From Candidatus Poribacteria bacterium (GTDB lineage Bacteria; Poribacteria; WGA-4E; WGA-3G), in the NCBI GenBank assembly GCA_028820845.1, contig JAPPII010000004.1, forward strand, positions 20,314-84,313: DNA of 64,000 nt. Reading direction: 5' to 3'. The notes below the pieces were generated by a model that worked only from the letters and a program-made list of their open reading frames with translations, ran no database searches and was not told where the DNA came from. The position numbers were made by a program, and so were the translations under genes. Shown one piece after another: positions 2,621-61,307 of this stretch; the stretch's first letter is position 1; each line of letters opens with the position of its first letter.

Positions 2621-2809
2621 TGTACGCCTCCATGATGAATGGATGGGGTTCGCCTCGTTTCTCGCTGAAGCGAAGTATACTCAGATTCGCAGCAGCCTTG
2701 GGTTAATATACAACGCTTTAACGCGAAAGTCAATTTACGGCAGTGCTGGTGCGATTTTCCAACCGCACCAGCTGGTTAGATATACGCTATGACGCGACGT
2801 AGTATACGC

Positions 2810-5800
2810 CTACTTCAAAATAAGCATCTTTCGCAGGAGCGAGACGTTATCTGCCTGAAATTGGTAGAAATAGATACCGCTTGCGACGCGTTCACCGACT
2901 TCGTTACGACCATTCCAATACGCTGCACGACTCCGCTCTGTGTAATAACCGGCATGCTGATGTCCGAGATTGAGTTGACGGACACGCGTGCCATGCACAT
3001 TGTAGATACTGATTGTCACCTCACTCGCATTCGCCAAGTGATACGGTATCCATGTCTCTGGGTTGAACGGATTCGGATAGTTCGGAAGTAAGGTCGTCTC
3101 TTCAGGTACAAGCAGTGCCAAGAGGCTTTCGAGATAAGCGATCCCTTCTCGGAAGGCAACAGAACCGTCATCTTCAAGTTGTGCCTGGTCTATCCACGCC
3201 TGTACCATCGCAGAATCGAGGTTCTCAATATTGTCCATCACAAGCATGGCAGGGGACGCTGCGCCTGTCGACTCACCAAGATGTTGGGCGACGAGGATGA
3301 GATCCAAAATGGTAATAGTACCGTCGTTTACGTCTGCTTCAGCGTTCGCAGCTGCAGTTTCACCAAACCGCTGCGCGACCCGAATCAGATCCAGAATGCT
3401 GACGCGTCCGTCCTGATTCACATCCCATGCCGGATATTCTCCCACAGTTATAGTGAGGTGAGGCGCGTCCGTAGGTATAACCGTTCCTGTTGCAGAACCA
3501 AACTCAAAATCACTGAGTGTCACTTCGGTTTTCCCACTCGCCTTTGCTGCGAATGTTATTGACAATAACGGACCTGATCCTTTAACCCCGTCTTCAGAGA
3601 TGTGAGCAGCACTGAGTCCGGTAATCTTCCCCAATCTGTTATTGATAGTTCCTTTTTGAAAGAAAGTCGTTCCACCACCGGTCTTCAGGAAGTCGCCTTC
3701 GTTGACTTCAACTGCCTCAAGGGTCGTTGGATCGAATGCGACATCAACCTGCCATCCGGCTAAATCGGCGACGTGTTCTGCATTGAGATCAACCGTAAAC
3801 CTATCGCCAATGAGAACATTTGTTGTGGTTGAAGAGAAGGCAAAATTGCCACCCGGCGGTATCACTGTGTATGCAGTGCCGTCTTCAAATCCGAACAAGC
3901 CCGTCCAACGGTTTTCTTCTGTCTCACTGCTCCCCCTCTCAAAAACAGCAACTAACATAAGGTTTGCGCCCTCTCTGAGCATGACAGGGAAGAATTCTGT
4001 GTAATACGCGTTTCCTCTTGATGTCGGATAGTTGTGAACCAACGCGCCGTTGAGCCAAACTTTAACAGCGTCGCCACTTCCAACAAGCATATTTACCTTC
4101 TGATTTTTCGGAGAACCTATGGTAATCAAACCGTAAGCAACATGACGGGCTGTATCGTCTGTAACTAAGTCTGTAGTTTTCACCACCTCATTTATGTTTC
4201 CGCGTGATGGTGAGATTTTGCCGATTGTCCAGACGTTGTTTCCAAGAGAGGCTCCCTCTTTCACGCCGTTTGTTGCGATGTCCAGTTCTGTTACGGTACC
4301 CTTACTCATCCGTGCCAGAAAATCTATGCCGGATTTAGCAGCATCTATGCTCCACATGCCGGGCGTTGGCGCGATCATCCATAACCACGGCCCCTCTATT
4401 TTCGGGCCCTCTGTTGGGAACCCGGGGTTACCGGCTGTGAATATAGGAATCTTCCCGAATAAGTCTGCTATAGGTGAGAAATCCGATACATTATTGCCTT
4501 CAAGACTTAAGTGTTCCAAGTGACTTAACGACGTGAGGGGCGATACGTCTGATATGCGATTATGCTGAAGCGACAGATCTCTCAAATTTGTTAGGTTTAC
4601 GAGCGGTGAAAGGTCTGATAGGTCTCCCATACTATAAAGTACCAACCTTTTCAAATTTGTTAGATTTGCGAGTGGTGAAAGGTCTGATACCACCCCTGAG
4701 TTGTGGCCCATGTCAAGCCATCTCAAGTTTGTGAGGGCACTCAGCGGGGATATATCATCTATAGCGAGCTCCCAAATTGAAATGCCTTCGAGATGGGCGA
4801 GTTCTGCAAGCGGTGAAAAATCGGATATCATCTTTCCGCTTATCCAAATTTCTTTCAGTGTCTTTAATCTGCCTATGGATCGGGCTAAATCGGATAAATC
4901 GGTTATGAGTTCGCTGCGGAGTTTCAATTGTTCGAGATTTGTCGCCGCCTCCAGTCCTGCGAAATCACGGATGTCATAGTCTCGTGCGCTAAGCGTCCTT
5001 AACGTTGCCATCTCCTCGGCTGTAATTACGGCATTCGGACTCTTGCCAAGTGCTTTCGCAACTGCGGCGCGCAAGTTTGGATCGGAAATATAAACAGATG
5101 CGCCGGGGATGATGTCGGTTTGCGGCGTAACTGGCGTAACGACATTGCTATCAGGAAAACTCAGCGCAGCAACAACGTCACTAAAGTTCGATGTCCATGT
5201 ATCCCGCTTCACCGTACCGGTCTCCAAGACCAGCAACCCTAAACTTTGTAAACTCGCATTCTCACGGATCTTCTGAAGAAATGTCTCCGTTTCTAAACCC
5301 ACACCTGCCGCAGCGTGTGCAGCATCAAGCGGTGCCTGAAATGCCTCGTAGAATCGCTGCGCGGGTTCAATGCCGCCAAATATATCGCCTGCCGCCTCAA
5401 GTGCCTGACGATACCGTTGGGTATCCTCGGATACAAGGCTGTTCATGACAGATTTCGGCACGTAGAGCCGTAAGGCTTGGGCTTTGTTATAGGGTGGGTT
5501 GGCGTTCTGCTGAATAACAGGACGTATCTGGTCTTCAAAGGTTTTCATGCCTTCGGTGTGGCAGCCGATGCACGACAGTCCATTCCGAACGGTCGGATCG
5601 CTCGCAGCCGGATTGGAAACAATACTGATCGGTGCGGCATCCAGTCGGTTCCCACCCCCGTCTGTGAGATAGTATGCTTGTAAACCGTTGGGTAAGTTGA
5701 AGACAACCTCGCCACCATCATAAGTAAAAGATAGCGGATGTGTGAAGATATGCTGCGTTCCGGCACTTCCCGCAAAGTCGTAACTTTTCCAATACGCACC

Positions 5801-29441: not shown

Positions 29442-29864
29442 ATTATATCACCCCATGAGCAGAATTGAATTGACATAAGAGTGTAGACGAAACCGGTTTG
29501 CAATGCAAGCGAAAAATAATCCATCATTTGTATACTTTGCAGACGCGCCACTTTCACTTCTAACATGCCGGCTCTTTCTTCCTGTAGGAGCGAGCTGTGC
29601 TCGCGACTTTTTTATCTCCCGATTTAAAAACTAATCTTCACCAAAATTAGTAGGCGAGGTTTCTAACCTCGCCGGTTCTCAGTCCACGATATAAACATTT
29701 CCCATTCATGCTTGCTCATAGTGCCTTGATAATTCTAAAATCTACTGCAACGACCTTCGGAAATTTGACACTTATTTGCATATTGTGATATACTTTGTAT
29801 ACCAACAGCCAAAATCAAACGTTGTATTTTCTATACATATACTTTGCTGGAAGGGACAAAATTT

Positions 29865-31271
29865 ATGACAGAGGCACCGTACAGCATCTTTGATTCACGC
29901 ACTCCTGACGATATCCACCATGAGATTCAAAAGGTTTATCTTGAAAACGCCCGACCATGGGTCATCGGATACAGCGGCGGAAAAGACTCGACGACTGCAC
30001 TTCAACTGATTTGGTATGCCCTTGCTGAATTGCCGCCAGAACAAAGGAAATATCCGGTCTACGTGATTTCATCTGATACATTGGTTGAGACACCGGTGAT
30101 TGTGAGCTACATCACTGGCACCTTAGACCGTATCGAGACGACTGCCCGCGAACAAAAGATGCCGTTTCAGACGGCCCTCGTCCGTCCAAAGACGGAAGAT
30201 ACCTTCTGGGTGAATCTCATCGGCAAAGGTTACCCTGCCCCGTATACACGCTTCCGGTGGTGTACGGACCGAATGAAAATCCAGCCAGCGAATCGGTTCA
30301 TATTGGAAAAAGTTGCTGAACACGGTGAAGTTATAATGGTTCTCGGGGTTCGCAAAGGTGAAAGTGCAACGCGCGATCAAGTCTTAAGTTTGCACCGTAT
30401 GAAAGATTCGCTCCTTTCACGACACACGACGTTACCCAATGCTTTTGTTTATACGCCTGTGGTCGATTTTACCATGGAAGACGTGTGGATGTATCTGTTA
30501 TCCAATCCCTCCCCGTGGGGCGGTGATAATCGACAGTTGGTGACACTCTATCGCAACACGAGCGCGGAAGGTGAGTGTCCTTTGGTGGTTGACGAGACAA
30601 CGCCATCTTGTGGAAACAGCCGCTTTGGATGCTGGACCTGCACTGTTGTAACAAAGGATAAAGCGATGGAAGGCCTAATTGATAGCGGGGAAGATTGGAT
30701 GCTACCCCTGCTTGAATTCCGTGACTTTCTTGCTGAGACCCAAGATCCTGTAAGGAAACCTGAAGTCCGCGAGCATCGTCGACGGAATGGACAAGTTATG
30801 ATCCTCAATAACAAACTTGTCCACGGTCCCTATACGTTGGACTTTTGCAAGGAACTCTTAACAAGACTTCTCACAACCCAGCAACAGGTTCGTAGAGACG
30901 GACCTGACCCAGATATCAAACTCATCACGGACGACGAGCTCGAAGAGATACGCAGGATCTGGCGAACCGAACGCCAAGATTGGGAAGACGCTGTCCCACA
31001 AATCTACACTGAGATTGTTGGAGACCGCGATTGGATCGTTGATAATACCCTCTCCTTTACTGAAAAGGATAAAGATATTTTGGAGGCGATCTGCAATGAA
31101 AACGGAATCCCTGTTACCCTTGTTGCAAAATTATTGGACACAGAGCGACAGATGGATGGAATGAGTCGACGTGCTGGAATACAATCCCGAATTGACGAGA
31201 TATTCCATGAGGATTGGCGTTCAGAAGAAGAAGTCCGGGCCGGTTTAGATAACGGTGATTTCCAACAATGA
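29865..31271 (+). CDS. dndC: DndC-like PAPS-reductase-fold ATP pyrophosphatase (DNA phosphorothioation protein DndC family).
   Basis: PP-loop WVIGYSGGKDSTTALQLIW. DndC-type Cys cluster ...ECPLVVDETTPSCGNSRFGCWTCTVV.... The ATG at 29865 is preceded by ggaaggg. A TTGACA-N18-TATACT promoter candidate lies at about 29776-29806. Confidence 0.8.
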   Translation: MTEAPYSIFDSRTPDDIHHEIQKVYLENARPWVIGYSGGKDSTTALQLIWYALAELPPEQRKYPVYVISSDTLVETPVIVSYITGTLDRIETTAREQKMPFQTALVRPKTEDTFWVNLIGKGYPAPYTRFRWCTDRMKIQPANRFILEKVAEHGEVIMVLGVRKGESATRDQVLSLHRMKDSLLSRHTTLPNAFVYTPVVDFTMEDVWMYLLSNPSPWGGDNRQLVTLYRNTSAEGECPLVVDETTPSCGNSRFGCWTCTVVTKDKAMEGLIDSGEDWMLPLLEFRDFLAETQDPVRKPEVREHRRRNGQVMILNNKLVHGPYTLDFCKELLTRLLTTQQQVRRDGPDPDIKLITDDELEEIRRIWRTERQDWEDAVPQIYTEIVGDRDWIVDNTLSFTEKDKDILEAICNENGIPVTLVAKLLDTERQMDGMSRRAGIQSRIDEIFHEDWRSEEEVRAGLDNGDFQQ

Positions 31272-33295
31272 TTATCCACAAGCTCACTCTTAACAATATT
31301 GGTCTGTTCCGCGGGACACAAACTATTAATCTTACACCGAACGGCAAGGGCCCCATAATCCTTATTGGCGGGATGAACGGGGCTGGTAAAACGACGCTCT
31401 TAGACGCAATTCGTCTTTGTTTGTACGGCAGGCGGTCCCTTGGGAACCGCGTCAGCCACAATGAATATTATGACTATCTCTCTTCATTGATTCATCGCGG
31501 TTCTGATTCAACAATACCTTTGAATCACGCTGCTGTATCACTTGAGTTTGAATATGCACACAGTGGAGAAACGAAACAATACCGTATTGAACGCACATGG
31601 CAACGGTCTGGCTCAAAACACCATAGCGTTAGCGAAGGTTTGACAATCTCCGAAAATAACTGGTTGAATACCGAATTTGACGCGGAACATTGGCAGGATC
31701 GTATTTATGAGTTTATCCCTATTGGGGTCTCCCAATTCTTTTTTTTCGACGGTGAGGACATCCAAAAATTGGCAGACGACTCCAAGCACGACCTATATCT
31801 CGCTGAGTCAACCAAAGCGTTGCTTGGGATAAACTTGGTGGAGCGATTACAATCGGATTTGCGTATCTACGCGAATCGTCTCGTGAAGCGTGATAGCCCT
31901 GAACCGGTCCAGAAAGAAATTGTGGAAGTAGAAGCAGAAATTGCTACGCTTGAGTCTGCACTCAGAGATACATACGTACGTGCAGAAGCTTTGGACATTC
32001 AAAGTGAGAAACTGGAAAACCAGATTGAGAGACAAGAATTGATCATTGCAGCCGAAGGTGGAGGTTATGCAGCGAAGCGAGAAAGCCTGAAAGTACAACA
32101 GGGACAGCTTCTTGCTGATATTGAGGCGTTGGAGACTGATATCCGAGACCTATGCGGTGAACTGTTTCCGTTTGCCTTAGTCCCTGATCTGCTCAAGAAA
32201 CTGGAAGATCGGCTCCTTAAAGAGATTGAATTAGACGAATGGGAAGCAAAGAATCTCGCCTTAGAATCTGTCAACACTGAAGTACTTAAGACCTTGGCAT
32301 CTGCCGCATTTTGGGATAGTGTCTCTTTACCTGAACCACAAATTGAAGCAGTTCGTTCCAAAATCACGCCATTCCTGAAAACCCAACTTGAAAAAACAAA
32401 ACGTGAACAACCAGAGACACTTCGCGGCTTCAAGAAGATCCGGGACCGCTCTCCTTCGGAGTACGGTCACCTATTGGAGTGGATTGATGCCTGCCTTAAT
32501 GAAGTGCCTCAAGAATTTCGTGAGTTGAATGATACATTAGCAAAAGCACAATTAGAACTGCAAAAGGTGGATCAGGACCTTCAGAAAGTCCCAGCCGAAG
32601 AGGTCTTGAAACCACTGATCGAAAAATTGTCCCTGTCAAATCAAGAACTTGGACAACTCCATAAAGAGGAACAAGAGGCAGAACAATCTATCAAATCTTT
32701 AGAGTATCAACTTGAAGTGGCAGAGCGAAAATTGGATAAACTGCGTCACACACAACAATTAGGAGAAGCACACGTCCAACGTCAACAACGCGTAGAAAAC
32801 GTGCAATCGGTGCTTTCTGCTTACACAACACGGTTGACCCAAGCTAAAATCGCTACATTGAGTGAGGCCATTGTACAAGGTTTTAATCAACTTTCACATA
32901 AACCCGATCGGATTAGACGCGTTGAAATTGACCCCCTGACCTTTGCTGTGACGCTCTATGATACCCAGAATCGCGCACTACGAAAAGAGAAGTTATCCGC
33001 GGGTGAGAAACAAATTTACACAACTGCCCTTTTATGGGCATTAGCGAAAACATCAGGTAAGGCATTACCGATGATTCTTGACACCCCGCTTGGACGTTTG
33101 GACAGTAGTCACAGACGACTTCTTATTGAACGTTATTTTCCGTATGCGAGTCATCAAGTTGTTCTGTTGTCAACCGACACCGAGGTCCAGGGATACTTGC
33201 GTTCGCTATTGGATCCCTACATTTCGCGTACTTTCCACTTGGTGTATCAACAAGTTGAAGGGTATACGACAATAAAGGAAGGCTATTTTGGGTAA
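31268..33295 (+). CDS. dndD: DndD-like SMC/ABC-type ATPase (DNA sulfur modification protein DndD family).
   Basis: N-terminus MIIHKLTLNNIGLFRGTQTINLTPNGKGPIILIGGMNGAGKTTLLDAIRLCLYG is the characteristic DndD start with Walker A. Long coiled-coil middle region. C-terminal signature and Walker B ...LSAGEKQIYTTALLWAL...PMILDTPLGRLD. The start overlaps the dndC stop (ATGA). Confidence 0.85.
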   Translation: MIIHKLTLNNIGLFRGTQTINLTPNGKGPIILIGGMNGAGKTTLLDAIRLCLYGRRSLGNRVSHNEYYDYLSSLIHRGSDSTIPLNHAAVSLEFEYAHSGETKQYRIERTWQRSGSKHHSVSEGLTISENNWLNTEFDAEHWQDRIYEFIPIGVSQFFFFDGEDIQKLADDSKHDLYLAESTKALLGINLVERLQSDLRIYANRLVKRDSPEPVQKEIVEVEAEIATLESALRDTYVRAEALDIQSEKLENQIERQELIIAAEGGGYAAKRESLKVQQGQLLADIEALETDIRDLCGELFPFALVPDLLKKLEDRLLKEIELDEWEAKNLALESVNTEVLKTLASAAFWDSVSLPEPQIEAVRSKITPFLKTQLEKTKREQPETLRGFKKIRDRSPSEYGHLLEWIDACLNEVPQEFRELNDTLAKAQLELQKVDQDLQKVPAEEVLKPLIEKLSLSNQELGQLHKEEQEAEQSIKSLEYQLEVAERKLDKLRHTQQLGEAHVQRQQRVENVQSVLSAYTTRLTQAKIATLSEAIVQGFNQLSHKPDRIRRVEIDPLTFAVTLYDTQNRALRKEKLSAGEKQIYTTALLWALAKTSGKALPMILDTPLGRLDSSHRRLLIERYFPYASHQVVLLSTDTEVQGYLRSLLDPYISRTFHLVYQQVEGYTTIKEGYFG

Positions 33296-33588
33296 TACTA
33301 AAATTTGGACAGTTCGTTTTGTTTCAAGTTGTGTTTTCCAATACCTCGGTGTTTTTCAGCAAGTTTTCCTAAAGGTGTAGTTCGCCAAAAAACAGGATTT
33401 CGGGTGAGAATATAAGCAACCCTTGCAGAATGCCACACGCGCATTCTGCATTGATTCCGGGGTGACATGTGTCATAAAATCTGAAGTAGGTGTCAAAAAA
33501 TTTGTGTTCAATTCAACTGCCTCACGGGAATTCTTAAAATTGTCCAAAGTTTAGTAAATCTATACACAAGTAGGGAAACAACATATTA

Positions 33589-34575
33589 ATGAAAAAGATA
33601 CGTAAAAGGACAATAGGATCTGTTAAGTCAGAACTTCTTGCTAAGGCACGAGAGGCAGCTTTATGTGCTATCCAAATTTTCAATTCCCCTCAAATTTTCT
33701 TCAAATCAGAGACTTTTATAGTCCTTATGGTAATAGCATGGACCTATATGCTTCATGCTTACTACAGATCTAAAGGTATCGAATACCGGTATTATAAACA
33801 GAGAGGTAAGAGAAAATCCTTTGAGCGAACTAAACATAAATCTTATAGATATTGGGAACTTGAAACCTGTTTAAGGCGTGATGAGTGCCCAATTGACATT
33901 AACACAACTAATAATCTTCTATTTCTGATAGGGCTCCGTCACGAAATTGAACATCAAATGACTCGTTCACTTGATAACTATCTGAGTGGCCACTATCAAG
34001 CATGTGCTCTGAACTTCAATCACTACATGAAGGAACTCTTTGGAGACAGATATGGCATCGATGATCATTTGGCATTCAGCATCCAGTTTATGAAACATTC
34101 GGAGGAACAAATTCTTGGTTCCAAGCCTGAGCCAAATATTCCAGAGCATCTACAAACTTATATTACTGAATTTAATGCTAGCCTAACCGAGGATCAGCGT
34201 AACAGTGAAAATTATGTAATCCGGCTAGTGTTCCGACCAAAGTTAGTTAATCGCCCGGGGCAAGCAGACAAGGTTATTGACTTTGTTAAGCCTGACTCAG
34301 CAGCTCCTTTTGAAGATAACGGGACATTGTACGTAACAACAAAGGAGATCGAACGTCCTAAACTCCTCCCTTCCGCTGTGGCGGCAAAGGTGCAAGAAGC
34401 AGGTTTTAAAAAGTTCAGGACTCAACCAGAGCATGTCAGGATGTGGAAAGCAGAAGATGCAAAGAATCCCAGCAAAGGATATGGCGTTGAAGTGCAAGGT
34501 CAATGGTATTGGTATGAATCTTGGGTTAAACGCTGTCTTGAATTGTGTAAAGCAGCTGGCGATCTTTACCGTTGA
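33589..34575 (+). CDS. Hypothetical protein with a HEPN-like R-x4-H motif; possible abortive-infection-type effector.
   Basis: LLFLIGLRHEIEHQMT contains RHEIEH (Rx4H) inside a predicted helical region. No other family recognised. AT-rich codon usage typical of the island. Confidence 0.35.
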   Translation: MKKIRKRTIGSVKSELLAKAREAALCAIQIFNSPQIFFKSETFIVLMVIAWTYMLHAYYRSKGIEYRYYKQRGKRKSFERTKHKSYRYWELETCLRRDECPIDINTTNNLLFLIGLRHEIEHQMTRSLDNYLSGHYQACALNFNHYMKELFGDRYGIDDHLAFSIQFMKHSEEQILGSKPEPNIPEHLQTYITEFNASLTEDQRNSENYVIRLVFRPKLVNRPGQADKVIDFVKPDSAAPFEDNGTLYVTTKEIERPKLLPSAVAAKVQEAGFKKFRTQPEHVRMWKAEDAKNPSKGYGVEVQGQWYWYESWVKRCLELCKAAGDLYR

Positions 34576-34616: not shown

Positions 34617-35573
34617 TTACTTTCTAAAAGCTTCCTCACGATGCCACGCCAAAGCATCTTGAGCCGGGTAAAGTGCGTCGTGTTCAGGCAACAATATAGT
34701 CTTCTCGCTCAGTTGAGTTAGCATCCACTCCGTTGGTCTTCTTTCTGACATGAGTACAGAGACAATAACTTGATAGGTCTCGTTCAAAGAAATTAAGCCT
34801 TTGTCAAAAGCCCAATGGTGCAATTTGCAAAGCGAGATTCCATTCCGCACATCGTCATTTCTTGAAATACGAAATGGAATGATGTGCGCGGCATCAGTCG
34901 CACTTTCCCCATCCATTGTGACAATGCGTAACCGACAAACAGCACAAGTATAATCGTACATTCTCATAATTGCTTGACGAAAGCCCGCAGTACGAATTGG
35001 ATTCTCTCTTTCAATTGGTGCTATCGGTTGCTGGGATGAAAATGTCTGTTCGACCTGTCGGATCAGCAACTGTCTGTACTCTCCAATTTGTTGTTCTTCT
35101 GTAATGAGGCTTTTGATCGCTTGCTCGAATTTAGAGAAATAGGTGTGAATAAGCGTTTGACGGAGAACCTCTCGATCTCGCGGGGTAGTGAGCAAAACAA
35201 AAAGCTCATCATCTAAACTTGCGTATGCAACAACTTCCCGAAGGCGGGATATTGATGTAATTCTACTCCTAACACTCAGGGCTTTTTCGTAACCAGCGTT
35301 TGGATGAAGGTGCCAGAAACCTCTGCCCGTTAGATGAAAAAATGGCAGAGCAATATTAGGTTTTCGATCTGTTACTACCTTCGTCCAATATTTCAGGAAA
35401 GTTTCTGCCAAATCTGGAGACAATAGTACTTTATTTTCCTGAATTTGTCCTTGCTCAATCAGTGCGATAATGACTAACAGAAGAAGCGGTTGGTGGGGTG
35501 CCGCACCATGTGCTCGGTCTATCCGCAAGCTTTTGAATTTTTGGACGTATTTTTGTAGGATAGTATTAGCCAT
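34617..35573 (-). CDS. HNH endonuclease with an about 200-aa N-terminal domain of unknown type (possibly a DNA or modification reader).
   Basis: C-terminal HNH: YDYTCAVCRL...DAAHIIPFRISRNDDVRNGISLCKLHHWAFDKG. Confidence 0.75.
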   Translation of the reverse strand: MANTILQKYVQKFKSLRIDRAHGAAPHQPLLLLVIIALIEQGQIQENKVLLSPDLAETFLKYWTKVVTDRKPNIALPFFHLTGRGFWHLHPNAGYEKALSVRSRITSISRLREVVAYASLDDELFVLLTTPRDREVLRQTLIHTYFSKFEQAIKSLITEEQQIGEYRQLLIRQVEQTFSSQQPIAPIERENPIRTAGFRQAIMRMYDYTCAVCRLRIVTMDGESATDAAHIIPFRISRNDDVRNGISLCKLHHWAFDKGLISLNETYQVIVSVLMSERRPTEWMLTQLSEKTILLPEHDALYPAQDALAWHREEAFRK

Positions 35574-35782
35574 CTTTTTACTGATACTGTGTTAAGTAAG
35601 ACTGGCAATTTTCTGGTGTCGGGTGTGAGACCGCAACCTATTTTTCACTAATACTGTGTAGCTTAAACACGGGGTATAAAAGTCTTTGACAAGATCTGCT
35701 CCATCGGAACGATATTCGTATTTTAACGAGATTTCTTTGAGTGATATAAAAGTTTTTCCAAAAAGTTAACTGTTTTCTAACA

Positions 35783-35845
35783 CCACAATTTTAACATATT
35801 TTGTAAAAAAATTCAAAATTTTCCTGACCGCTATCAAAGTCTACT
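35783..35845 (-). promoter_or_regulatory. Promoter/operator copy A, upstream of the HNH gene. Reverse strand reads TTGAAT-N17-TTAAAAT.
   Basis: About 55 bp nearly identical to 37738-37800: cacaattttaacatattttgtaaaaaaattcaaaattttcctgacc against cggcaattctaacatatttcgtgaaaaaatgtcaaaattttcctaac. Confidence 0.6.
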
Positions 35846-35956
35846 AATCCTGAAAATCCTGATTCAGATGATTAACGCCTCCCATTGTAAATGCAGAGTA
35901 GCAATTCTGTTGGCTACACGCCTCTATCATGAAATTAGAATCAATAAAGCCGTAAC

Positions 35957-37219
35957 TTACAAGACTCTTTTCGGTAATTGAACCTGGTTCGTCTCTTGTT
36001 CTAATGCCTTAGCATAATCCTCGCGTAATTTATTTACATCCCCCGAAAATTGATTCAGCATATAGAATAACAAATTTTTAGCGAGCGTCTTACCTTTTAT
36101 GATCATCTTTTTTTTTGTAGGGTGCCAGATGATACCATTATAGGGGACTTGGGTCAGGTCTGTAGGTAATTTTGAAAGCATCTTGAAACATTCAGGGAGT
36201 GGATACTTCTCTGCAAGTACCGCGATGACTTCTGTTAATATCTTGAGACCTATAGGACGAAAAAGGACGCTGCCTCCGTCTGAATGTCTATATTTCTTAA
36301 CAACTGTTGAATTGTCAGATGTATTAGCAAATTCCTGCAAGGGTAAAAAACTATTTGTAAGGCGTTTAAAGTAATCACAAGCATTGTCGTAATGCTGATT
36401 GAGAATCTCATCTGATTGGCGTATTTTCGTGAGTTCATCTTTTTTCTCTTTAAGTGTCTTTCTTTTTGAGAGGACGTATACTTTGGTAAAGAGTATGTCT
36501 AACAGATCGTAAAGATTCCCAATCGTCGTGAGACAGGTCTGATTACTTTTTGGGATACTATCGGGCACATTGTTTAAAATTCGTGGGTCCATAAACATCG
36601 GATTTCCCGCAACCAACCGTCGGACAATAATAGCTATCGTATCGTTCTCATCAAGAGCGATAATTTCTCCTTTTGAAACCCGGACAGCATTTTTATTTAA
36701 AGTCGTGAAAAGCCTCCGGCTCCTTTCCACTCCTTCTATATCCGTTCTGTGCGCGATGAAAATAATAGACAATTCCTCTTCGCCCAATTGTGGGTTCTCT
36801 GTTACAGCTGCTTTAATTCCTATGAGGCGGTGTTGCCCATCTAATGTGAATAGTTTTTCTTCTCCGTTCAGACTTAGAATTCCGATCCCCGCGACTACAT
36901 CTTCTGGAATCTCTTCAGGATCCAATTGGTTGTTGCTCTTGATATGGGTAATATCATACCAGCTGGGGTCGCCTTCATAGGCTGCGACAATCAGCGAATT
37001 AAAAAAACGTTGTTCCTGTTTTAAGAGATAATCTCTTATCTCGTTCCCTCGTTTTCTTTTTATCTCTCGTTGTACCATCTCGCTCAAGGTTTTGCTTTGG
37101 TAAATTTCCTCAGCAATTTTAACCCTTTCAGCGATGTCTTTAAGTTTCATGAGGGTAGGGTAATAGACCCAATCACCCACTATGCCTCTTAGCGACGGAA
37201 GATATAATTTTTCCATCAT
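35957..37219 (-). CDS. dndB: DGQHR-domain protein (DndB family).
   Basis: ...KLFTLDGQHRLIGIKAAV... contains the DGQHR motif. The N-terminus MMEKLYLPSLRGIVGDWVYYPTLMKL is typical of DndB-like proteins. Confidence 0.75.
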   Translation of the reverse strand: MMEKLYLPSLRGIVGDWVYYPTLMKLKDIAERVKIAEEIYQSKTLSEMVQREIKRKRGNEIRDYLLKQEQRFFNSLIVAAYEGDPSWYDITHIKSNNQLDPEEIPEDVVAGIGILSLNGEEKLFTLDGQHRLIGIKAAVTENPQLGEEELSIIFIAHRTDIEGVERSRRLFTTLNKNAVRVSKGEIIALDENDTIAIIVRRLVAGNPMFMDPRILNNVPDSIPKSNQTCLTTIGNLYDLLDILFTKVYVLSKRKTLKEKKDELTKIRQSDEILNQHYDNACDYFKRLTNSFLPLQEFANTSDNSTVVKKYRHSDGGSVLFRPIGLKILTEVIAVLAEKYPLPECFKMLSKLPTDLTQVPYNGIIWHPTKKKMIIKGKTLAKNLLFYMLNQFSGDVNKLREDYAKALEQETNQVQLPKRVL

Positions 37220-37716
37220 TTTAGTCCTTTGATTATGTCTCGTACTTCCGCTGAATATCCTCGTTCAACGAAAGGTGGTGTGAAGGTATCTAATAGCATG
37301 CGCTCTAGCTGTTTTAAATCCATCTCGGTTGGATCTACTTCGACGTAATAAAAATACAGATAGTTTTCCCATGTATTTAGCATAAGGTGAATACGTCTTC
37401 TTTTGGGATGCTGTTTGTAATAGAGATAATCTCTAAATCTTTTTTGTAAGTCCCGCTCGCTCTCATGTCCTGTTTGTCCGAGGTATACTAAATAACCATG
37501 CGCTGGAAAATTACCAATTCTGGGTTCAATGAAAAAAGCGTAAATTCCCTTCTCAGTAGGGATCTTATTCGCGTTGTTTCTTTCAAACTTTACGCATTGC
37601 CAATCTAATGCAATCCGTGGGGCAGTGTAGGTATCCCACTGTTCTTTCCAAAGAAAAAAGGATCTTTGATAAATACTTACATCTTTTTGCTGATCAATTG
37701 GATCTTGGTATACCAT
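37216..37716 (-). CDS. Small GIY-YIG-like nuclease domain protein, translationally coupled to the DGQHR gene by a 4-nt overlap.
   Basis: EKGIYAFFIEP...HGYLVYLGQTGHESERDLQKRFRDYLYY parallels GIY...YVGKAKDLKKRLSSY of GIY-YIG nucleases. The GIY-to-YxG spacing is longer than usual. Confidence 0.45.
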   Translation of the reverse strand: MVYQDPIDQQKDVSIYQRSFFLWKEQWDTYTAPRIALDWQCVKFERNNANKIPTEKGIYAFFIEPRIGNFPAHGYLVYLGQTGHESERDLQKRFRDYLYYKQHPKRRRIHLMLNTWENYLYFYYVEVDPTEMDLKQLERMLLDTFTPPFVERGYSAEVRDIIKGLK

Positions 37717-37737
37717 AACGTCTCCTAAAGCGGTTTA

Positions 37738-37800
37738 CACGGCAATTCTAACATATTTCGTGAAAAAATGTCAAAATTTTCCTAACACTACCAAAATCCG
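37738..37800 (-). promoter_or_regulatory. Promoter/operator copy B, upstream of the GIY-YIG/DGQHR operon. Reverse strand reads TTGACA-N17-TTAGAAT.
   Basis: Same 55-bp element as 35783-35845. Confidence 0.6.
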
Positions 37801-37922
37801 CGTCATCCGTGCAATCCGCGTTATCCGAGATTTGCGGCGTACTCGCCCAAAAGCGACGTGCATTCAGACGAAAAAAAATCCTAATTCCGACAGACAACCC
37901 ATAACTTATAACCCATTTTTAC

Positions 37923-37951
37923 TTGACATCCGTTAGCAAAAAGAGTATAAT
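37923..37951 (+). promoter_or_regulatory. Perfect consensus sigma70-type promoter TTGACA-N17-TATAAT with no ORF within about 500 bp (orphan).
   Basis: acTTGACAtccgttagcaaaaagagTATAATat. Confidence 0.6.
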
Positions 37952-38321
37952 ATATCATTAAGATTTCCAAAGAGGTGAATAGCGTATCAAACTATAGCCG
38001 ACAGCCAATTGCCAACAGCCAACAGCCACAAAAAAATGTTACACTTTTGGCAAAATTGCGTTTTTTCGCATAACAGAAAATCGAAAGTAAAACGTCTACG
38101 AACCCCGACACCCACTGGGTTCTCTTACGGTATAGGCAACACACCAAATGTACACCGGTGTAACATTAGTGTAACATTTTTAACGCAAATTGCTGAAAAA
38201 TATACCGTTAAGTTAAAACCGTATTCACGCCCGTATGATCCTGTGAATCCTTGAATCCTGTCCATCCGCATTCTGACAATCCGCTGCCAAAATATTTAAA
38301 CACCCCTCCAAAATTTTATAT

Positions 38322-38350
38322 TTGACAAATTTCTGGGAAAAATGTAAAAT
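38322..38350 (+). promoter_or_regulatory. Promoter TTGACA-N17-TAAAAT for the secreted paralogue pair.
   Basis: tTTGACAaatttctgggaaaaatgTAAAATat, 125 nt upstream of the ATG at 38475. Confidence 0.6.
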
Positions 38351-38474
38351 ATACAACAATAAGGCAGGAAACGATTGTAACTTTGCAACAAAAGCGTGTT
38401 AACATCGTTTTGTATAATAGGTGATTGCGCATCGCAATGCGGATTTTTTACACTAACCGATAGGAGATTCTCAC

Positions 38475-39305
38475 ATGAGACTATTTATGACTGTTGCTGG
38501 CGTACTATGCGCTGCAACCCTTGCGCTTCTGGCACCCACAGCCGATGCTGCAAATAAAGTAGATGTGTTCATCTACACGGACACAGTGCAGTGGATCGGT
38601 CAAGCCGCAGCAGTAGAAGAAGCCGAAATACTGGCGGACCTACTTGACGGACAAGACGGAATCGGCGAACTCATCCTTCACGGGCCAGCAAAAACTGTTG
38701 AAGCCTGGACAAAAGACCATACCGTGGACAATGGACACCATCTCATTGTCATGTTCGGTGATGTACCCGTCGAAATTTACGACGTCGGGAAAGATGCCAA
38801 AAAAGAAACCGTCGCCGAGGAGTTCCTTGATGCAGGTAACACCTTCTCGAACAGTGCCGACTACTTTTTCTGGGGACAGGGCGGCAGAAATGAAGAAGCC
38901 GGTATCAAGAATATGATGGATATCCCCAATATGGTGCAGTGGGATGATAATACGGCTATGGAGGTTACCAAAGAGGGGAAAGAACTTACACCCACACTTG
39001 ATGACTACGCGACAGACCGACCCTTCCACGTTGATAAACTTGATGGTGATTGGGTTTTAGAAATCGCATTCGCTTCGGATACTGGAGACCAAAAAGCCGA
39101 CCGCTGTGACCCTTGTATCGTCCACAATACGAAAACGAATGGACGACTCATTCAGGTCTACCAAACCGCTAACCAAGATGACCCGAAAGGCGAAGTTATC
39201 GCCGAAATTATTCTCAACTACTACCTTGAGACTGTCGGCGCCCTTGACGTTGACCCTCAAGATAAACTTCCCGCTTTATGGGGAGATATGAAAAGAAGGA
39301 GATAA
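38475..39305 (+). CDS. Secreted hypothetical protein, paralogue A.
   Basis: Signal peptide MRLFMTVAGVLCAATLALLAPTADA. Shares GRNEEAGIKNMMDI, DRPFHVDKLDGDWVLE and VYQTANQDDPKGEVIAEII blocks with the next ORF. Confidence 0.6.
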   Translation: MRLFMTVAGVLCAATLALLAPTADAANKVDVFIYTDTVQWIGQAAAVEEAEILADLLDGQDGIGELILHGPAKTVEAWTKDHTVDNGHHLIVMFGDVPVEIYDVGKDAKKETVAEEFLDAGNTFSNSADYFFWGQGGRNEEAGIKNMMDIPNMVQWDDNTAMEVTKEGKELTPTLDDYATDRPFHVDKLDGDWVLEIAFASDTGDQKADRCDPCIVHNTKTNGRLIQVYQTANQDDPKGEVIAEIILNYYLETVGALDVDPQDKLPALWGDMKRRR

Positions 39306-39311
39306 CATTTA

Positions 39312-40115
39312 ATGCGAAATATTTTTCTGTCACTCACGCTTATTGCTTTACTGGCACTGCCGCTAACGCCGGTCTTTGCTGCCGGTGAAGTCGCTATCTA
39401 CACAGGTGTCACGCAGTGGATCGGTAAAGCACCCGCCGACGAACAGGCAGAAATCTGTGTCGATATGCTCAACGATGCTGGTATCTCTAACACATGGTAC
39501 GATGCCGAGGCAGATACGGATGCCTTGGCGGATTGGATGGAGAGTGTCACCGGTGATGGTGGACTGGATATCTGTGTCCTCTATGGTGATTTTCCACCAA
39601 GCCTCTACCCAGAAGGTAATACACAAACGGATGGCTCCATTGCCGAAACGTTCATCGAAACCACCGATGGCGATGTGTTCATCAATCACGCCGATTACAT
39701 GTTCTGGGGACTCGCTGGCAGGAACGAAGAAGGCGGGCTAAAGAATATGATGGATATCGACGGGATCACCATGTGGGACGATAACACCGACATGGTTGTC
39801 ACCTCTGAAGGTGCCGCTATCTCTCCTACGCTCACTGATTTCCAATCTGACCGTCCCTTCCACGTCGATGAATTGGAAGGCAATTGGGAAGTCGAAGTTT
39901 CCCTCGCACAGAACGATGACGGCACTCGTGCCGATCCGATTATCGTGCGCGATGGAAACCTTGGTCGACTGATTCCAGTGATACAGACAGCAAACGGCGA
40001 TGAACCGAAAGGCGCAGTTGCCGCTGAAATTATCACCTGGCTCATGGCCACAACGCCGGTCGAACCTGCTGACAAGCTTTCCACAACGTGGGGTGCTTTG
40101 AAAGCAGTCCGATAA
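39312..40115 (+). CDS. Secreted hypothetical protein, paralogue B (tandem duplicate of 38475-39305).
   Basis: Signal peptide MRNIFLSLTLIALLALPLTPVFA. Shares GRNEEGGLKNMMDI, DRPFHVDELEGNWEVE and VIQTANGDEPKGAVAAEII. Confidence 0.6.
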   Translation: MRNIFLSLTLIALLALPLTPVFAAGEVAIYTGVTQWIGKAPADEQAEICVDMLNDAGISNTWYDAEADTDALADWMESVTGDGGLDICVLYGDFPPSLYPEGNTQTDGSIAETFIETTDGDVFINHADYMFWGLAGRNEEGGLKNMMDIDGITMWDDNTDMVVTSEGAAISPTLTDFQSDRPFHVDELEGNWEVEVSLAQNDDGTRADPIIVRDGNLGRLIPVIQTANGDEPKGAVAAEIITWLMATTPVEPADKLSTTWGALKAVR

Positions 40116-60377: not shown

Positions 60378-61307
60378 TTAATCGTTAAAAAATTCCACAC
60401 GCATCACGTCAGCGAAAATGTCCTCTAACGTATGTTTCACCTCACGCAGCTGGCGGAGTTGGACCCCGGTATCGTAAGCGAGTTTGAAGAAGATTTGTGT
60501 ATCCGTCTGTTCTCCGTTTTCGGATGTAACGTGAAGGCGTTTGTCGGGTCGCAATTCAATCTGGTAATTATGACGTTCCAGAGCGTCAATATAAGCATCG
60601 GTGTCGCCTACGATTTTCAAGTCGTATGCTCGTCCTTTCTCCCTTCTAAGTGCGTCTATCTGTGCATGCGCAGCAACACTTCCGTGTGAAAGTGCGATAA
60701 TCTCCTCACATGCGGACTCTACATCGGGAAGCAAGTGCGAGGATAAAATTACATTGATATTTTTATCGGTTGCGATGTCTTTAACGAGTTCAAGCATTTC
60801 CTCTCTACCATTGGTATCCATGCCGTTTGTCGGTTCGTCGAGCAGTAGCAACTTTGGATCGTGTATCAATGCTTGGGCTAATTTCACGCGCTGTTTCATT
60901 CCAACGGAGTATTCACCCACGATGCGGTAGCGTTCTTCGTCTAACCCAACGTAGTAGAGGACTTCGTGTGCCCGTTGCAGGGCATCCCGTCTCGGCATCC
61001 CACAGAGTTCACCAGCGTAGGCAACGAGTTGGACAGCAGTCATTCCCGGAATTAAACATTCGTCTTCTGGCATATATCCGACCTGTCTGCGTATTTCCAG
61101 CGGTTGTCTCTCTACGTCCATTCCAAATACCGCTGCACTGCCTTGGTTGGGTTTGACGAAACCGAGTAGCGTTTTAAGCAACGTGCTTTTTCCGGCACCA
61201 TTGGGTCCGAGTAAGCCGACAGCACCGCCTTGCACCTCCAACGAGAGGTTATCTAACGCCGCAGTCGTGCCAAAAAAGAGTGATACATTCTTGATTTCAA
61301 TTAGCAT
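60378..61307 (-). CDS. ABC transporter ATP-binding protein (ABC-2 type).
   Basis: VGLLGPNGAGKSTLLKTLLG. Signature region ...YSVGMKQRVKLAQAL...LLLLDEPTNGMD. Confidence 0.85.
   Translation of the reverse strand: MLIEIKNVSLFFGTTAALDNLSLEVQGGAVGLLGPNGAGKSTLLKTLLGFVKPNQGSAAVFGMDVERQPLEIRRQVGYMPEDECLIPGMTAVQLVAYAGELCGMPRRDALQRAHEVLYYVGLDEERYRIVGEYSVGMKQRVKLAQALIHDPKLLLLDEPTNGMDTNGREEMLELVKDIATDKNINVILSSHLLPDVESACEEIIALSHGSVAAHAQIDALRREKGRAYDLKIVGDTDAYIDALERHNYQIELRPDKRLHVTSENGEQTDTQIFFKLAYDTGVQLRQLREVKHTLEDIFADVMRVEFFND

What the first reader, a model, noticed from the sequence alone, without database searches (positions are those of the whole stretch)
35783..37800. Duplicated 55-bp promoter/operator in front of both the GIY-YIG-DGQHR operon and the HNH gene
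Nearly identical 55-bp segments lie immediately upstream of the HNH gene (35783-35845) and of the GIY-YIG gene (37738-37800). On the coding strand they read TTGAAT-N17-TTAAAAT and TTGACA-N17-TTAGAAT. Duplication of a whole promoter/operator is uncommon. It argues that the three minus-strand genes form one co-regulated module. DndB-family proteins are DNA-binding regulators of dnd operons, so the shared element may be the DGQHR protein's operator, i.e. autoregulation.
Basis: seen in the sequence. Interest (0 to 1): 0.6.

Follow-up and report, generated by a model that had tools for sequence, protein, structure and literature searches.

The report
Island promoter present twice; one stranded
The repeated segment is real: it is the conserved promoter of a phosphorothioate-linked (Dnd/Pbe) defence island of Poribacteria, and the second copy is a leftover still attached to the stub of a deleted helicase-nuclease gene (pbeA), not a purpose-built shared operator.

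Summary
The repeat exists (35780-35841 and 37737-37798, sense strand minus). It is 74% identical ungapped, 83% gapped and 37/43 in the core, far above chance (alignment score 67 against 21.7±2.5 in shuffles). Both copies are sigma-70-type promoters with a TRTGn extended -10.

A profile built only from relatives' promoters finds exactly these two sites in the 64 kb (E about 1e-11; next best 1.9). Every related locus has one copy. In complete Poribacteria islands, that copy heads pbeA-pbeB-pbeC-pbeD-GIY-YIG-DGQHR. In pbe-less loci it heads GIY-YIG-DGQHR(-HNH).

Copy 2 is that promoter, 22 nt before the GIY-YIG gene. Copy 1 is not immediately upstream of HNH: it lies about 208 nt away. It is followed by the pbeA 5'UTR and a pbeA stub: the start codon is ATG->ATA, 28 codons stay in frame, then come indels and a stop.

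In the closest relatives HNH follows DGQHR by 17-111 nt with no promoter. Each copy resembles a promoter in another genome more than its partner, so this is rearrangement debris, not a recent local duplication.

The core is under purifying selection (0.83 identity against 0.63 at 4-fold sites). An overlapping operator therefore cannot be excluded, but nothing here supports DGQHR binding.

The parts
37737..37798 (-). Copy 2 of the island promoter. The -35 TTGACA is at 37774-37769, the spacer is 18 nt, the -10 TAGAAT is at 37750-37745 and is preceded by TATGT (TRTGn). An A/T tract GGAAAATTTT lies upstream. About 22 nt of 5'UTR with an AGGAG ribosome-binding site precede the GIY-YIG ATG at 37716.
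   Evidence: nhmmer profile from 8 other genomes: E 4.3e-11. It is orthologous to the promoter before GIY-YIG in L003, L004, L007, L014, L029-L032 and is 41/43 identical to L031.
35780..35841 (-). Copy 1 of the island promoter. The -35 TTGAAT is at 35816-35811, the spacer is 17 nt, and the -10 TAAAAT is at 35793-35788 with TATGT before it. It is followed by a pbeA-type 5'UTR (…AACAGTTAACTTTTTGGAAAAAC…).
   Evidence: nhmmer E 3.1e-11. It aligns together with its leader to the pbeA promoters of L035, L036, L006 and L038. The core is closest to L004's (40/43).
35589..35747 (-). pbeA pseudogene stub. The start codon is ATG->ATA at 35747. 28 codons (35747-35664) are 86% identical to the PbeA N-terminus. 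A 5-nt deletion then gives a stop, followed by a 12-nt deletion. Homology fades about 16 nt before the HNH ATG.
   Evidence: tblastn of L006 PbeA: residues 1-28, 85.7%, E 2e-10. Nucleotide alignments. L006 718-2778 matches PADLOC PbeA with E 1.3e-248. No pbeB, pbeC or pbeD in the window.
37216..37716 (-). GIY-YIG-like (URI) nuclease gene, 166 aa, first gene behind copy 2.
   Evidence: Pfam GIY-YIG E 0.0012, below the cut-off for this protein. 8 of 10 orthologues hit GIY-YIG, best E 6e-6. Invariant residues: G57, Y59, Y78, G80, R93, E126.
35957..37219 (-). DGQHR-domain (DndB/ParB-superfamily) gene, 420 aa. It overlaps the GIY-YIG stop by 4 nt.
   Evidence: Pfam DndB 1.2e-33. TIGR03187 114 bits, above its cut-off; TIGR03233 DndB equivalog 74 bits against a cut-off of 328.
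34617..35573 (-). SBD-HNH (ScoMcrA-like, phosphorothioate-binding) endonuclease gene, 318 aa. It is probably transcribed by read-through from copy 2 and/or from copy 1 through the 208-nt pbeA-stub leader.
   Evidence: Pfam HNH_2 3.9e-13. Precomputed PF26340 DNA-SBD_ScoMcrA. NF045808 135 bits, below its cut-off of 180. No minus-strand terminator and no other promoter match in 35574-35956.
35846..35861 (-). Two CAGGATT repeats just upstream of copy 1. They are part of the duplicated upstream region shared with L004 and L031.
   Evidence: (spacer 80-112 matches L004 5350-5382).
37796..37827 (-). Four tandem 9-nt units, CGGATNNNN, upstream of copy 2. They lie between copy 2 and the divergent plus-strand promoter at 37923-37951.
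   Evidence: the only cluster of 3 or more CGGAT within 60 nt in the 64 kb..

Best explanation
The repeated segment of about 60 nt is the operon promoter of a Dnd/Pbe phosphorothioate-associated defence island that sits at a fixed chromosomal site in Candidatus Poribacteria.

It is a sigma-70-type promoter with four recognisable parts: a promoter-proximal A/T tract, a -35 hexamer TTGAC(A), a 17-18 nt spacer ending in TRTGn (extended -10), and a -10 hexamer TA(A/G)AAT.

In intact islands a single copy drives pbeA-pbeB-pbeC-pbeD-GIY-YIG-DGQHR. In islands that lost pbeABCD the same promoter is fused to a short new 5'UTR and drives GIY-YIG-DGQHR(-HNH).

The window carries both forms:
- Copy 2 drives GIY-YIG-DGQHR.
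- Copy 1 still has its upstream GGATT repeats, its pbeA 5'UTR and the first ~55 codons of pbeA, now dead (ATG->ATA, frameshift, stop). It is left between DGQHR and the SBD-HNH gene.

The two copies therefore result from recombination or cassette exchange followed by deletion in a fast-rearranging defence locus.

What is shown and what is inferred:
- Shown: the homology, the gene stub, the one-copy rule in relatives, and the selective constraint on the core.
- Inferred: both copies still fire. HNH would then be transcribed both by read-through from copy 2 and from copy 1 through a 208-nt leader made of the pbeA stub. Any co-regulation follows from shared ancestry of the promoters.
For: (1) Both copies match the sigma-70 consensus with TG. 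Copy 2 is 22 nt plus an AGGAG ribosome-binding site from the GIY-YIG ATG.

(2) A profile from 8 relatives finds only the two copies in the 64 kb. It finds one copy per related locus, always at the head of the island operon: before GIY-YIG in L003, L004, L007, L014, L029-L032 and before pbeA in L035-L041 and L006.

(3) Copy 1 plus 260 nt downstream aligns with the pbeA promoter, 5'UTR and 5' coding region of L035, L036, L006 and L038. It carries ATA for ATG and 5-nt and 12-nt deletions. PbeA and PbeC identity comes from PADLOC (E 1e-248 and 9e-128).

(4) The nearest relative for the flanks is L031: p276 99%, DndC 94.5% and HNH 94% amino-acid identity, flanks about 90-92% nt. It has one promoter and a promoter-less gap of about 111 nt between DGQHR and HNH. 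Its promoter/GIY-YIG/DGQHR stretch (window 37979-35957) is only 75% nt identical overall, although its promoter core is 41/43 identical to copy 2, so the cassette was exchanged. The nearest relative for the cassette, L025 (DGQHR 92% nt), has HNH 17 nt after DGQHR.

(5) Copy 1 is closest to L004's promoter (40/43). Copy 2 is closest to L031's (41/43). Copy 1 against copy 2 is 37/43.

(6) The locus type rearranges often. L014 has an in-frame GIY-YIG::DGQHR deletion, tandem HNH genes and a decayed promoter/pbeA leader before HNH2. L030 and L029 have truncated HNH copies. L025 and L032 have damaged GIY-YIG genes.

(7) Mean pairwise identity of the core is 0.83, against 0.63 at 4-fold sites of DGQHR and 0.59 in the 45 nt upstream.
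Against: No transcription data exist, so promoter activity is inferred from consensus and conservation only, and the promoter rules of Poribacteria are not established.

The order of events is not resolved: tandem duplication plus deletions, or import of a P-pbeA' fragment by recombination. The one locus with pbeA after DGQHR (L028) has no copy of the element.

The spacer (T6-YRYR-AAA) is more conserved than RNA polymerase contacts alone obviously require. A regulator site may overlap it.

Only 64 kb of the genome could be searched for further copies.
Confidence: 0.8

Rival explanations
1. One reading: the shared element is an operator as well as a promoter. An island-encoded regulator, proposed to be the DGQHR/DndB-like protein, binds both copies and co-represses GIY-YIG-DGQHR and HNH (autoregulation). 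This could coexist with the relic origin of copy 1.
For: Canonical DndB represses its own dndBCDE promoter (PMC4507180).

The whole 43-nt core is conserved above the neutral rate, including spacer positions not normally read by RNA polymerase. The spacer has a weak T-tract/A-tract dyad (TTTC-AC-GAAA, TTCGCGAA, TTTTATAAAA).

The element is island-specific and not a generic promoter consensus of this genome. In every locus the DGQHR gene lies in the operon behind it.
Against: The protein is not a DndB equivalog (74 against 328 bits).

The known DndB operator TACG-N10-CGTA is absent.

Nearly all invariant positions map to the A/T tract, -35, TRTGn and -10.

The dyad is kept in only 4 of 7 sequence variants, so there is no convincing covariation.

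The dndC-dndD operon, the classical DndB target, has no copy.

L014 keeps an intact core although its DGQHR motif region is deleted.

Others have proposed that DndB-family proteins act as ParB-like NTPases or nucleases rather than as transcription factors (PMC10853773).
Confidence: 0.15
2. The two copies are direct repeats that bound a mobile or exchangeable GIY-YIG-DGQHR cassette (spacing 1957 nt). They would serve as recombination anchors for cassette swapping, as conserved promoter cassettes do in some phage genomes.
For: The repeats flank exactly the two-gene cassette. Against L031, the stretch holding the GIY-YIG/DGQHR cassette and its promoter region is 75% nt identical while the flanks are about 90-92%. 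The left breakpoint lies close to copy 2, whose core is itself 41/43 identical to L031's.
Against: All other loci have a single copy, so the cassette is normally not flanked by repeats.

Copy 1 runs on into pbeA sequence, which shows it belongs to another gene.

No integrase or transposase lies next to it in the window.

The right-hand breakpoint of the exchange is at the HNH start, not at copy 1.
Confidence: 0.05
3. Chance resemblance of two A/T-rich strong promoters, that is, convergence on the sigma-70 consensus.
For: A strict 24-base pattern of the element also hit 16 unrelated A/T-rich contigs in metagenomes. This shows that such promoters arise independently.
Against: The permutation z-score is about 18. 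Similarity extends to non-consensus spacer and flanking positions and to about 30 nt upstream. Both copies have clear orthologues at syntenic positions. Other strong promoters in the window, such as the 12/12 match at 37923, do not match the profile.
Confidence: 0.01

Closest known systems
Operon promoter of PbeABCD / CxC-ABC-ATPase systems linked to Dnd modification genes (Xiong et al. 2019, PMC6459918; Aravind-lab reappraisal 2024, PMC10853773)
   Same: Related loci carry pbeA (HKD nuclease + SF2 helicase), pbeB (small protein), pbeC (ABC ATPase) and pbeD (DndE-like) next to dndC, dndD and dndE. The element is the promoter in front of pbeA there. Copy 1 in the window is that promoter with a pbeA stub.
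   Different: I did not find this promoter described in the papers read. In the window pbeABCD is gone, and the island also carries GIY-YIG-like and DGQHR genes in the same operon plus an SBD-HNH gene.
DndB-repressed dndBCDE promoter of Salmonella enterica (He et al. 2015, PMC4507180)
   Same: A DndB-family gene lies in the operon behind the promoter, so autoregulation is conceivable.
   Different: The Salmonella operator is two TACG-N10-CGTA palindromes, and none is present here. Here the DGQHR gene is the last gene, not the first. It is not a DndB equivalog. The operon contains nucleases, not dndCDE.
Promoter relics left on gene stubs after deletion (ordinary pseudogene decay in defence islands)
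   Same: A promoter, a 5'UTR and a 5' gene fragment with a mutated start codon and frameshifts lie next to a newer gene.
   Different: Both the relic and the working copy of the same promoter survive in one locus, 1957 nt apart. The relic is well enough preserved (4/6 at -35, 5/6 at -10 and TG) that it may still be used.
Promoter-bearing regulatory cassettes (PeSL) flanking shuffled genes in T4-type phages (recalled from memory, not checked here)
   Same: Conserved promoter sequences recur at the borders of exchangeable gene cassettes.
   Different: This is not a phage. There is no associated stem-loop: the leader fold z-score is 0.27. Only this genome has two copies.

Membership tests
Sigma-70-type promoter with extended -10 | -35 and -10 hexamers close to TTGACA and TATAAT, with a 16-18 nt spacer | tested here: met
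   Copy 2 is TTGACA-18-TAGAAT (11/12). Copy 1 is TTGAAT-17-TAAAAT (9/12)..
Sigma-70-type promoter with extended -10 | TGn (TRTGn) immediately upstream of the -10 | tested here: met
   TATGT precedes the -10 in both copies and in 13 of 14 homologous promoters.
Sigma-70-type promoter with extended -10 | Placed at the head of an operon at a sensible distance from a ribosome-binding site and start codon | tested here: met
   For copy 2, about 22 nt of 5'UTR with AGGAG precede the ATG. For copy 1, about 34 nt precede the former pbeA start, as in L035 and L036.
Sigma-70-type promoter with extended -10 | Transcription start mapped downstream of the -10 | not testable with these tools
   No RNA data were available for this uncultivated organism.
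DndB operator / DndB autoregulated promoter | The regulator is a DndB orthologue | tested here: not met
   TIGR03233 scores 73.7 bits against a cut-off of 328. Only the generic DGQHR-domain model passes.
DndB operator / DndB autoregulated promoter | Palindromic TACG-N10-CGTA sites in the promoter region | tested here: not met
   The only occurrence in the window is at 60609. The motif is taken from PMC4507180.
DndB operator / DndB autoregulated promoter | Specific binding of the protein to the element, and repression | not testable with these tools
   This needs EMSA, footprinting or reporter assays.
pbeA gene (PbeABCD system) | Sequence homology to PbeA | tested here: met
   28 codons are 86% identical to the N-terminus of L006 PbeA, E 2e-10. 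The nucleotide alignment runs to about codon 55. The reference protein matches PADLOC PbeA with E 1e-248.
pbeA gene (PbeABCD system) | Intact open reading frame of about 686 aa followed by pbeB, pbeC and pbeD | tested here: not met
   The start codon is ATA, there is a stop after codon 28, and there are 5-nt and 12-nt deletions. No pbeB, pbeC or pbeD is present in the window. It is a pseudogene stub.
Dispersed repeat / MITE / REP element | Many copies in varied contexts, terminal inverted repeats or a stable fold | tested here: not met
   There are two copies in 64 kb and one per related locus, always at the island operon head. The metagenome scan gave one true homologue. The rest of the genome was not searchable.

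The most novel reading that the evidence does not exclude
The 43-nt core is more than a promoter. It would be the common operator of an island-encoded regulator (the DGQHR/ParB-like protein or a partner) that holds the nuclease operons of the Poribacteria Dnd/Pbe island (pbeABCD-GIY-YIG-DGQHR, and in this genome also SBD-HNH) under one switch. The relic copy 1 would have been kept because it puts the phosphorothioate-sensing HNH nuclease under that same switch.
Probability: 0.12. Interest if true: 0.5.

Novelty: new member of a known kind. Interest (0 to 1): 0.27.

Why it matters
This shows how a striking duplicated promoter can be explained by comparison with related loci. One conserved island promoter became present twice through cassette exchange and gene loss.

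It gives a precise, testable promoter for a widespread Poribacteria Dnd/Pbe defence island, which would be useful for expressing or studying these uncultivated systems.

It also documents that this island sheds and swaps nuclease modules (pbeABCD against SBD-HNH) while keeping its promoter.

It does not reveal a new regulatory principle.

Tried and rejected
(1) Rfam: the whole window at gathering thresholds and 35500-38500 at E<=1 gave no RNA family.

(2) Leader RNA (35782-35560): the fold z-score is 0.27, so there is no structure.

(3) Metagenome scan with a 24-base pattern of the element: 17 hits, of which 16 were chance A/T-rich promoters and only L014 was homologous.

(4) Repeat in the leader, ACACAGTAT[T/C]AGT… (35575-35592 and 35642-35659): I first read it as a duplicated DGQHR/HNH junction. 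I rejected that because the upstream copy is pbeA coding sequence, codons ~31-35.

(5) L028, which has pbeA after DGQHR, as the donor architecture: it has no copy of the element, so it is not a direct model.

(6) Salmonella DndB operator motif: absent.

(7) PDB sequence searches for the DGQHR and GIY-YIG-like proteins, the latter also as a profile: no informative hits.

(8) Covariation in the spacer dyad: 4 concordant and 3 discordant variants, not convincing.

(9) Conserved 200-nt block at 38032-38236: RNAalifold gave a weak consensus (-8.65 kcal/mol, 2 compensatory pairs), so I do not claim it as an RNA.
Full report
OBSERVATION

The minus strand carries three genes:
- a 166-aa GIY-YIG-like gene (37716-37216);
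- a 420-aa DGQHR/DndB-family gene (37219-35957);
- a 318-aa SBD-HNH gene (35573-34617).

The repeat finder reports a 62-nt direct repeat at 35780-35841 and 37737-37798, 74% identical without gaps. Two compensating 1-nt indels shift the register. The gapped local alignment has 53 of 64 columns identical, and the promoter core is 37/43 identical.

The similarity is not chance:
- A degenerate 30-mer matched twice in the window and never in 100 shuffles.
- The Smith-Waterman score between the two intergenic regions is 67, against 21.7 ± 2.5 (maximum 32) in 500 dinucleotide shuffles.

On the coding strand copy 2 reads TTGACA-18-TAGAAT and copy 1 reads TTGAAT-17-TAAAAT, each with TG before the -10. 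'Nearly identical' is generous. 'Immediately upstream of the HNH gene' is wrong: the -10 of copy 1 ends at 35788 and the HNH ATG is at 35573.

WHERE THE WINDOW COMES FROM

The DGQHR protein is found exactly on an ENA metagenome scaffold of 194,880 nt (L001). Its relatives are almost all Candidatus Poribacteria MAGs. The plus strand next door carries dndC (fused to the Sp-DndD small protein), dndD and a DUF3644/PDC-S19 gene. The locus is therefore a phosphorothioate (Dnd) island.

WHAT THE ELEMENT IS

The same segment lies directly before the GIY-YIG gene in L003, L004, L007, L014, L029, L030, L031 and L032.

I built a profile from those eight sequences, leaving out the window. It finds exactly two sites in the 64-kb window: copy 1 (E 3.1e-11) and copy 2 (E 4.3e-11). 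The next best site has E 1.9. It finds one site in each related locus. Other strong promoters in the window, such as the perfect TTGACA-17-TATAAT at 37923, do not match. The element is therefore specific to this island and is not the general promoter consensus of the genome.

Fetching loci through PbeA homologues showed the complete form of the island. It sits at the same chromosomal site, between the conserved 276/267-aa genes and dndE-dndD-dndC:

promoter -> pbeA-pbeB-pbeC-pbeD-GIY-YIG-DGQHR.

The PbeA and PbeC assignments come from PADLOC (E 1.3e-248 and 9e-128). There the same element sits before pbeA (E 7e-11 in L035, 5e-6 in L036, 7e-6 in L038; weak in L006), and no second copy precedes the GIY-YIG gene. 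The element is thus the single operon promoter of the island. In pbe-less islands it is joined to a short 5'UTR with a GGAG ribosome-binding site in front of the GIY-YIG gene.

WHAT COPY 1 IS

The 384-nt DGQHR-HNH spacer was compared with all loci. From copy 1 onward, about 260 nt align with the promoter, 5'UTR and first ~55 codons of pbeA in L035, L036, L006 and L038. In the window:
- the pbeA start codon is ATA (35747);
- 28 codons remain in frame and are 86% identical to PbeA (tblastn E 2e-10);
- a 5-nt deletion then creates a stop, followed by a 12-nt deletion;
- homology ends about 16 nt before the HNH ATG.

pbeB, pbeC, pbeD and dndE are absent from the window. Copy 1 is therefore the promoter of a decayed pbeA gene. 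It only appears to belong to HNH because the rest of pbeABCD is gone.

HOW THE TWO COPIES AROSE (INFERENCE)

The nearest relative for the flanking DNA is L031: p276 99%, DndC 94.5%, DndD 90% and HNH 94% amino-acid identity, with flanks 90-92% nt identical. L031 has one promoter and a promoter-less DGQHR-HNH gap of about 111 nt. Its promoter/GIY-YIG/DGQHR stretch (window 37979-35957) is only 75% nt identical to the window's overall (GIY-YIG 63%, DGQHR 77% amino acid), although its promoter core is 41/43 identical to copy 2.

The nearest relative for the cassette is L025 (DGQHR 92% nt), which has HNH 17 nt after DGQHR. L003 and L029 have gaps of about 30 nt.

Copy 1 is most like L004's promoter (40/43) and shares L004's and L031's upstream CAGGATT repeats. 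Copy 2 is most like L031's (41/43). The two window copies share 37/43. The copies are therefore not a fresh local duplication. The GIY-YIG-DGQHR-[P-pbeA'] stretch was assembled by recombination between island variants and then trimmed by deletion.

The locus type is visibly unstable:
- L014 has an in-frame deletion fusing the GIY-YIG N-terminus to the DGQHR C-terminus. It also has two tandem HNH genes, with a decayed copy of the promoter plus the same pbeA-type leader in front of the second.
- L030 and L029 carry truncated HNH genes.
- L025 and L032 carry damaged GIY-YIG genes.

DOES IT WORK, AND IS IT AN OPERATOR?

Among eight orthologous promoters the core has a mean pairwise identity of 0.83. 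The comparison values are 0.63 at 4-fold degenerate sites of the adjacent DGQHR gene and 0.59 in the 45 nt upstream. The core is therefore under purifying selection.

The consensus is TCArGAAAATTTTGAC-TTTTTT-yryrAAAtATGTTArAAT. Most invariant positions correspond to a promoter-proximal A/T tract, the -35, the TRTGn motif and the -10, which are RNA polymerase contacts by established knowledge of sigma-70 promoters. The T6…A3 spacer is also conserved and weakly dyad-symmetric, but only 4 of 7 variants keep the symmetry. A regulator site overlapping the promoter cannot be excluded.

The specific proposal that the DGQHR protein binds the element has no support:
- The protein passes only the generic DGQHR-domain model and fails the DndB equivalog.
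- The footprinted DndB operator of Salmonella, TACG-N10-CGTA (PMC4507180), is absent.
- dndC-dndD has no copy of the element.
- The role of DndB-family proteins as transcription factors is itself disputed (PMC10853773).

No minus-strand terminator and no other promoter match lies between DGQHR and HNH, and the leader has no significant fold. I infer that HNH is transcribed by read-through from copy 2 and, if copy 1 still fires, from copy 1 as well.

COMPARISON WITH KNOWN SYSTEMS AND NOVELTY

The genes belong to known kinds:
- Dnd modification genes and the PbeABCD / CxC-ABC system (PMC6459918; PMC10853773);
- a URI/GIY-YIG nuclease and an SBD-HNH nuclease, both noted in Dnd neighbourhoods.

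The element is an ordinary sigma-70-type promoter. I did not find it described in the papers read.

The module idea is supported by synteny and by the GIY-YIG::DGQHR fusion protein in L038-L041, not by the promoter duplication.

VERDICT

The explanation is mostly mundane: one island promoter is present twice, and one copy is stranded on a gene stub. Interest is low to moderate. The residual open point is whether the unusually conserved spacer or the neighbouring CGGAT repeats are a regulator site.

Noticed in passing
L038:11726-13459 (also L039, L040, L041): The GIY-YIG-like and DGQHR genes are fused into a single 577-aa protein in one Poribacteria lineage. This gene-fusion signal indicates that the two proteins act together, probably as a nuclease plus a ParB-like NTPase/DNA-binding module.
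   Followed up: partly
window 29844-34575; L031: The window has dndC (with the Sp-DndD domain) and dndD. It has no dndE and no pbeBCD (tblastn E>1). Complete islands (L035-L041) have dndE. In their place sit a DUF3644/PDC-S19 gene and a phosphorothioate-binding SBD-HNH nuclease. The modification arm may be defective, which would fit the presence of a PT-dependent nuclease.
   Followed up: partly
window 37796-37827 and 38238-38283 (minus strand): There are four tandem 9-nt units, CGGATNNNN, between copy 2 and the divergent plus-strand promoter, and a second cluster of five (C/A)GGAT motifs 450 nt away. These are the only such clusters in the 64 kb. Similar GGATT repeats precede copy 1 and the promoters of L004, L031 and L006. 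They could be a regulator-binding array.
   Followed up: partly
window 37923-37951 (+) and 38032-38236: A perfect TTGACA-17-TATAAT promoter on the plus strand lies in a block that is nearly identical to L031 over about 65 nt. It is about 520 nt upstream of the next long ORF. It points into a block of about 200 nt conserved in L031, L004 and L003. The block contains the palindrome TGT(T)ACACCGGTGTAACA and flanking ATGTTACAC half-sites. It has no Rfam match and only a weak consensus fold. It could be an operator cluster or an unannotated small RNA or protein.
   Followed up: partly
L014:1687-2184 and 2339-4438: An in-frame deletion joins about 20 codons of the GIY-YIG gene to the last ~142 codons of DGQHR. 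It is followed by two tandem SBD-HNH paralogues. The spacer between them holds a decayed copy of the promoter and the pbeA-type leader.
   Followed up: yes
window 35957-37979 against L031:3964-5940: The promoter/GIY-YIG/DGQHR stretch is about 75% nt identical to the closest relative, while both flanks are about 90-92% identical. This is an allelic cassette replacement inside an otherwise collinear locus.
   Followed up: yes
L036:5324-6448: An IS605-type OrfB/TnpB (Cas12f-like) gene is inserted between the conserved 278-aa flank gene and the pbeA promoter in one relative.
   Followed up: no
L031:5940-6052, L032:5280-5429, L007:7330-7427, L014:2230-2339: Loci without the pbeA stub share a conserved leader of about 100 nt before HNH, with a hairpin (CCTTTCC…GGAAAGG). 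Gene callers extend HNH by 17 codons into it, giving 335-aa products.
   Followed up: no
window 38475-39305 and 39312-40115 (+): Two tandem paralogous genes (276 and 267 aa, 45% identical; this explains repeats D1, D3 and D4) have no Pfam or NCBIfam match. They are conserved at the island's left border in all Poribacteria loci.
   Followed up: no
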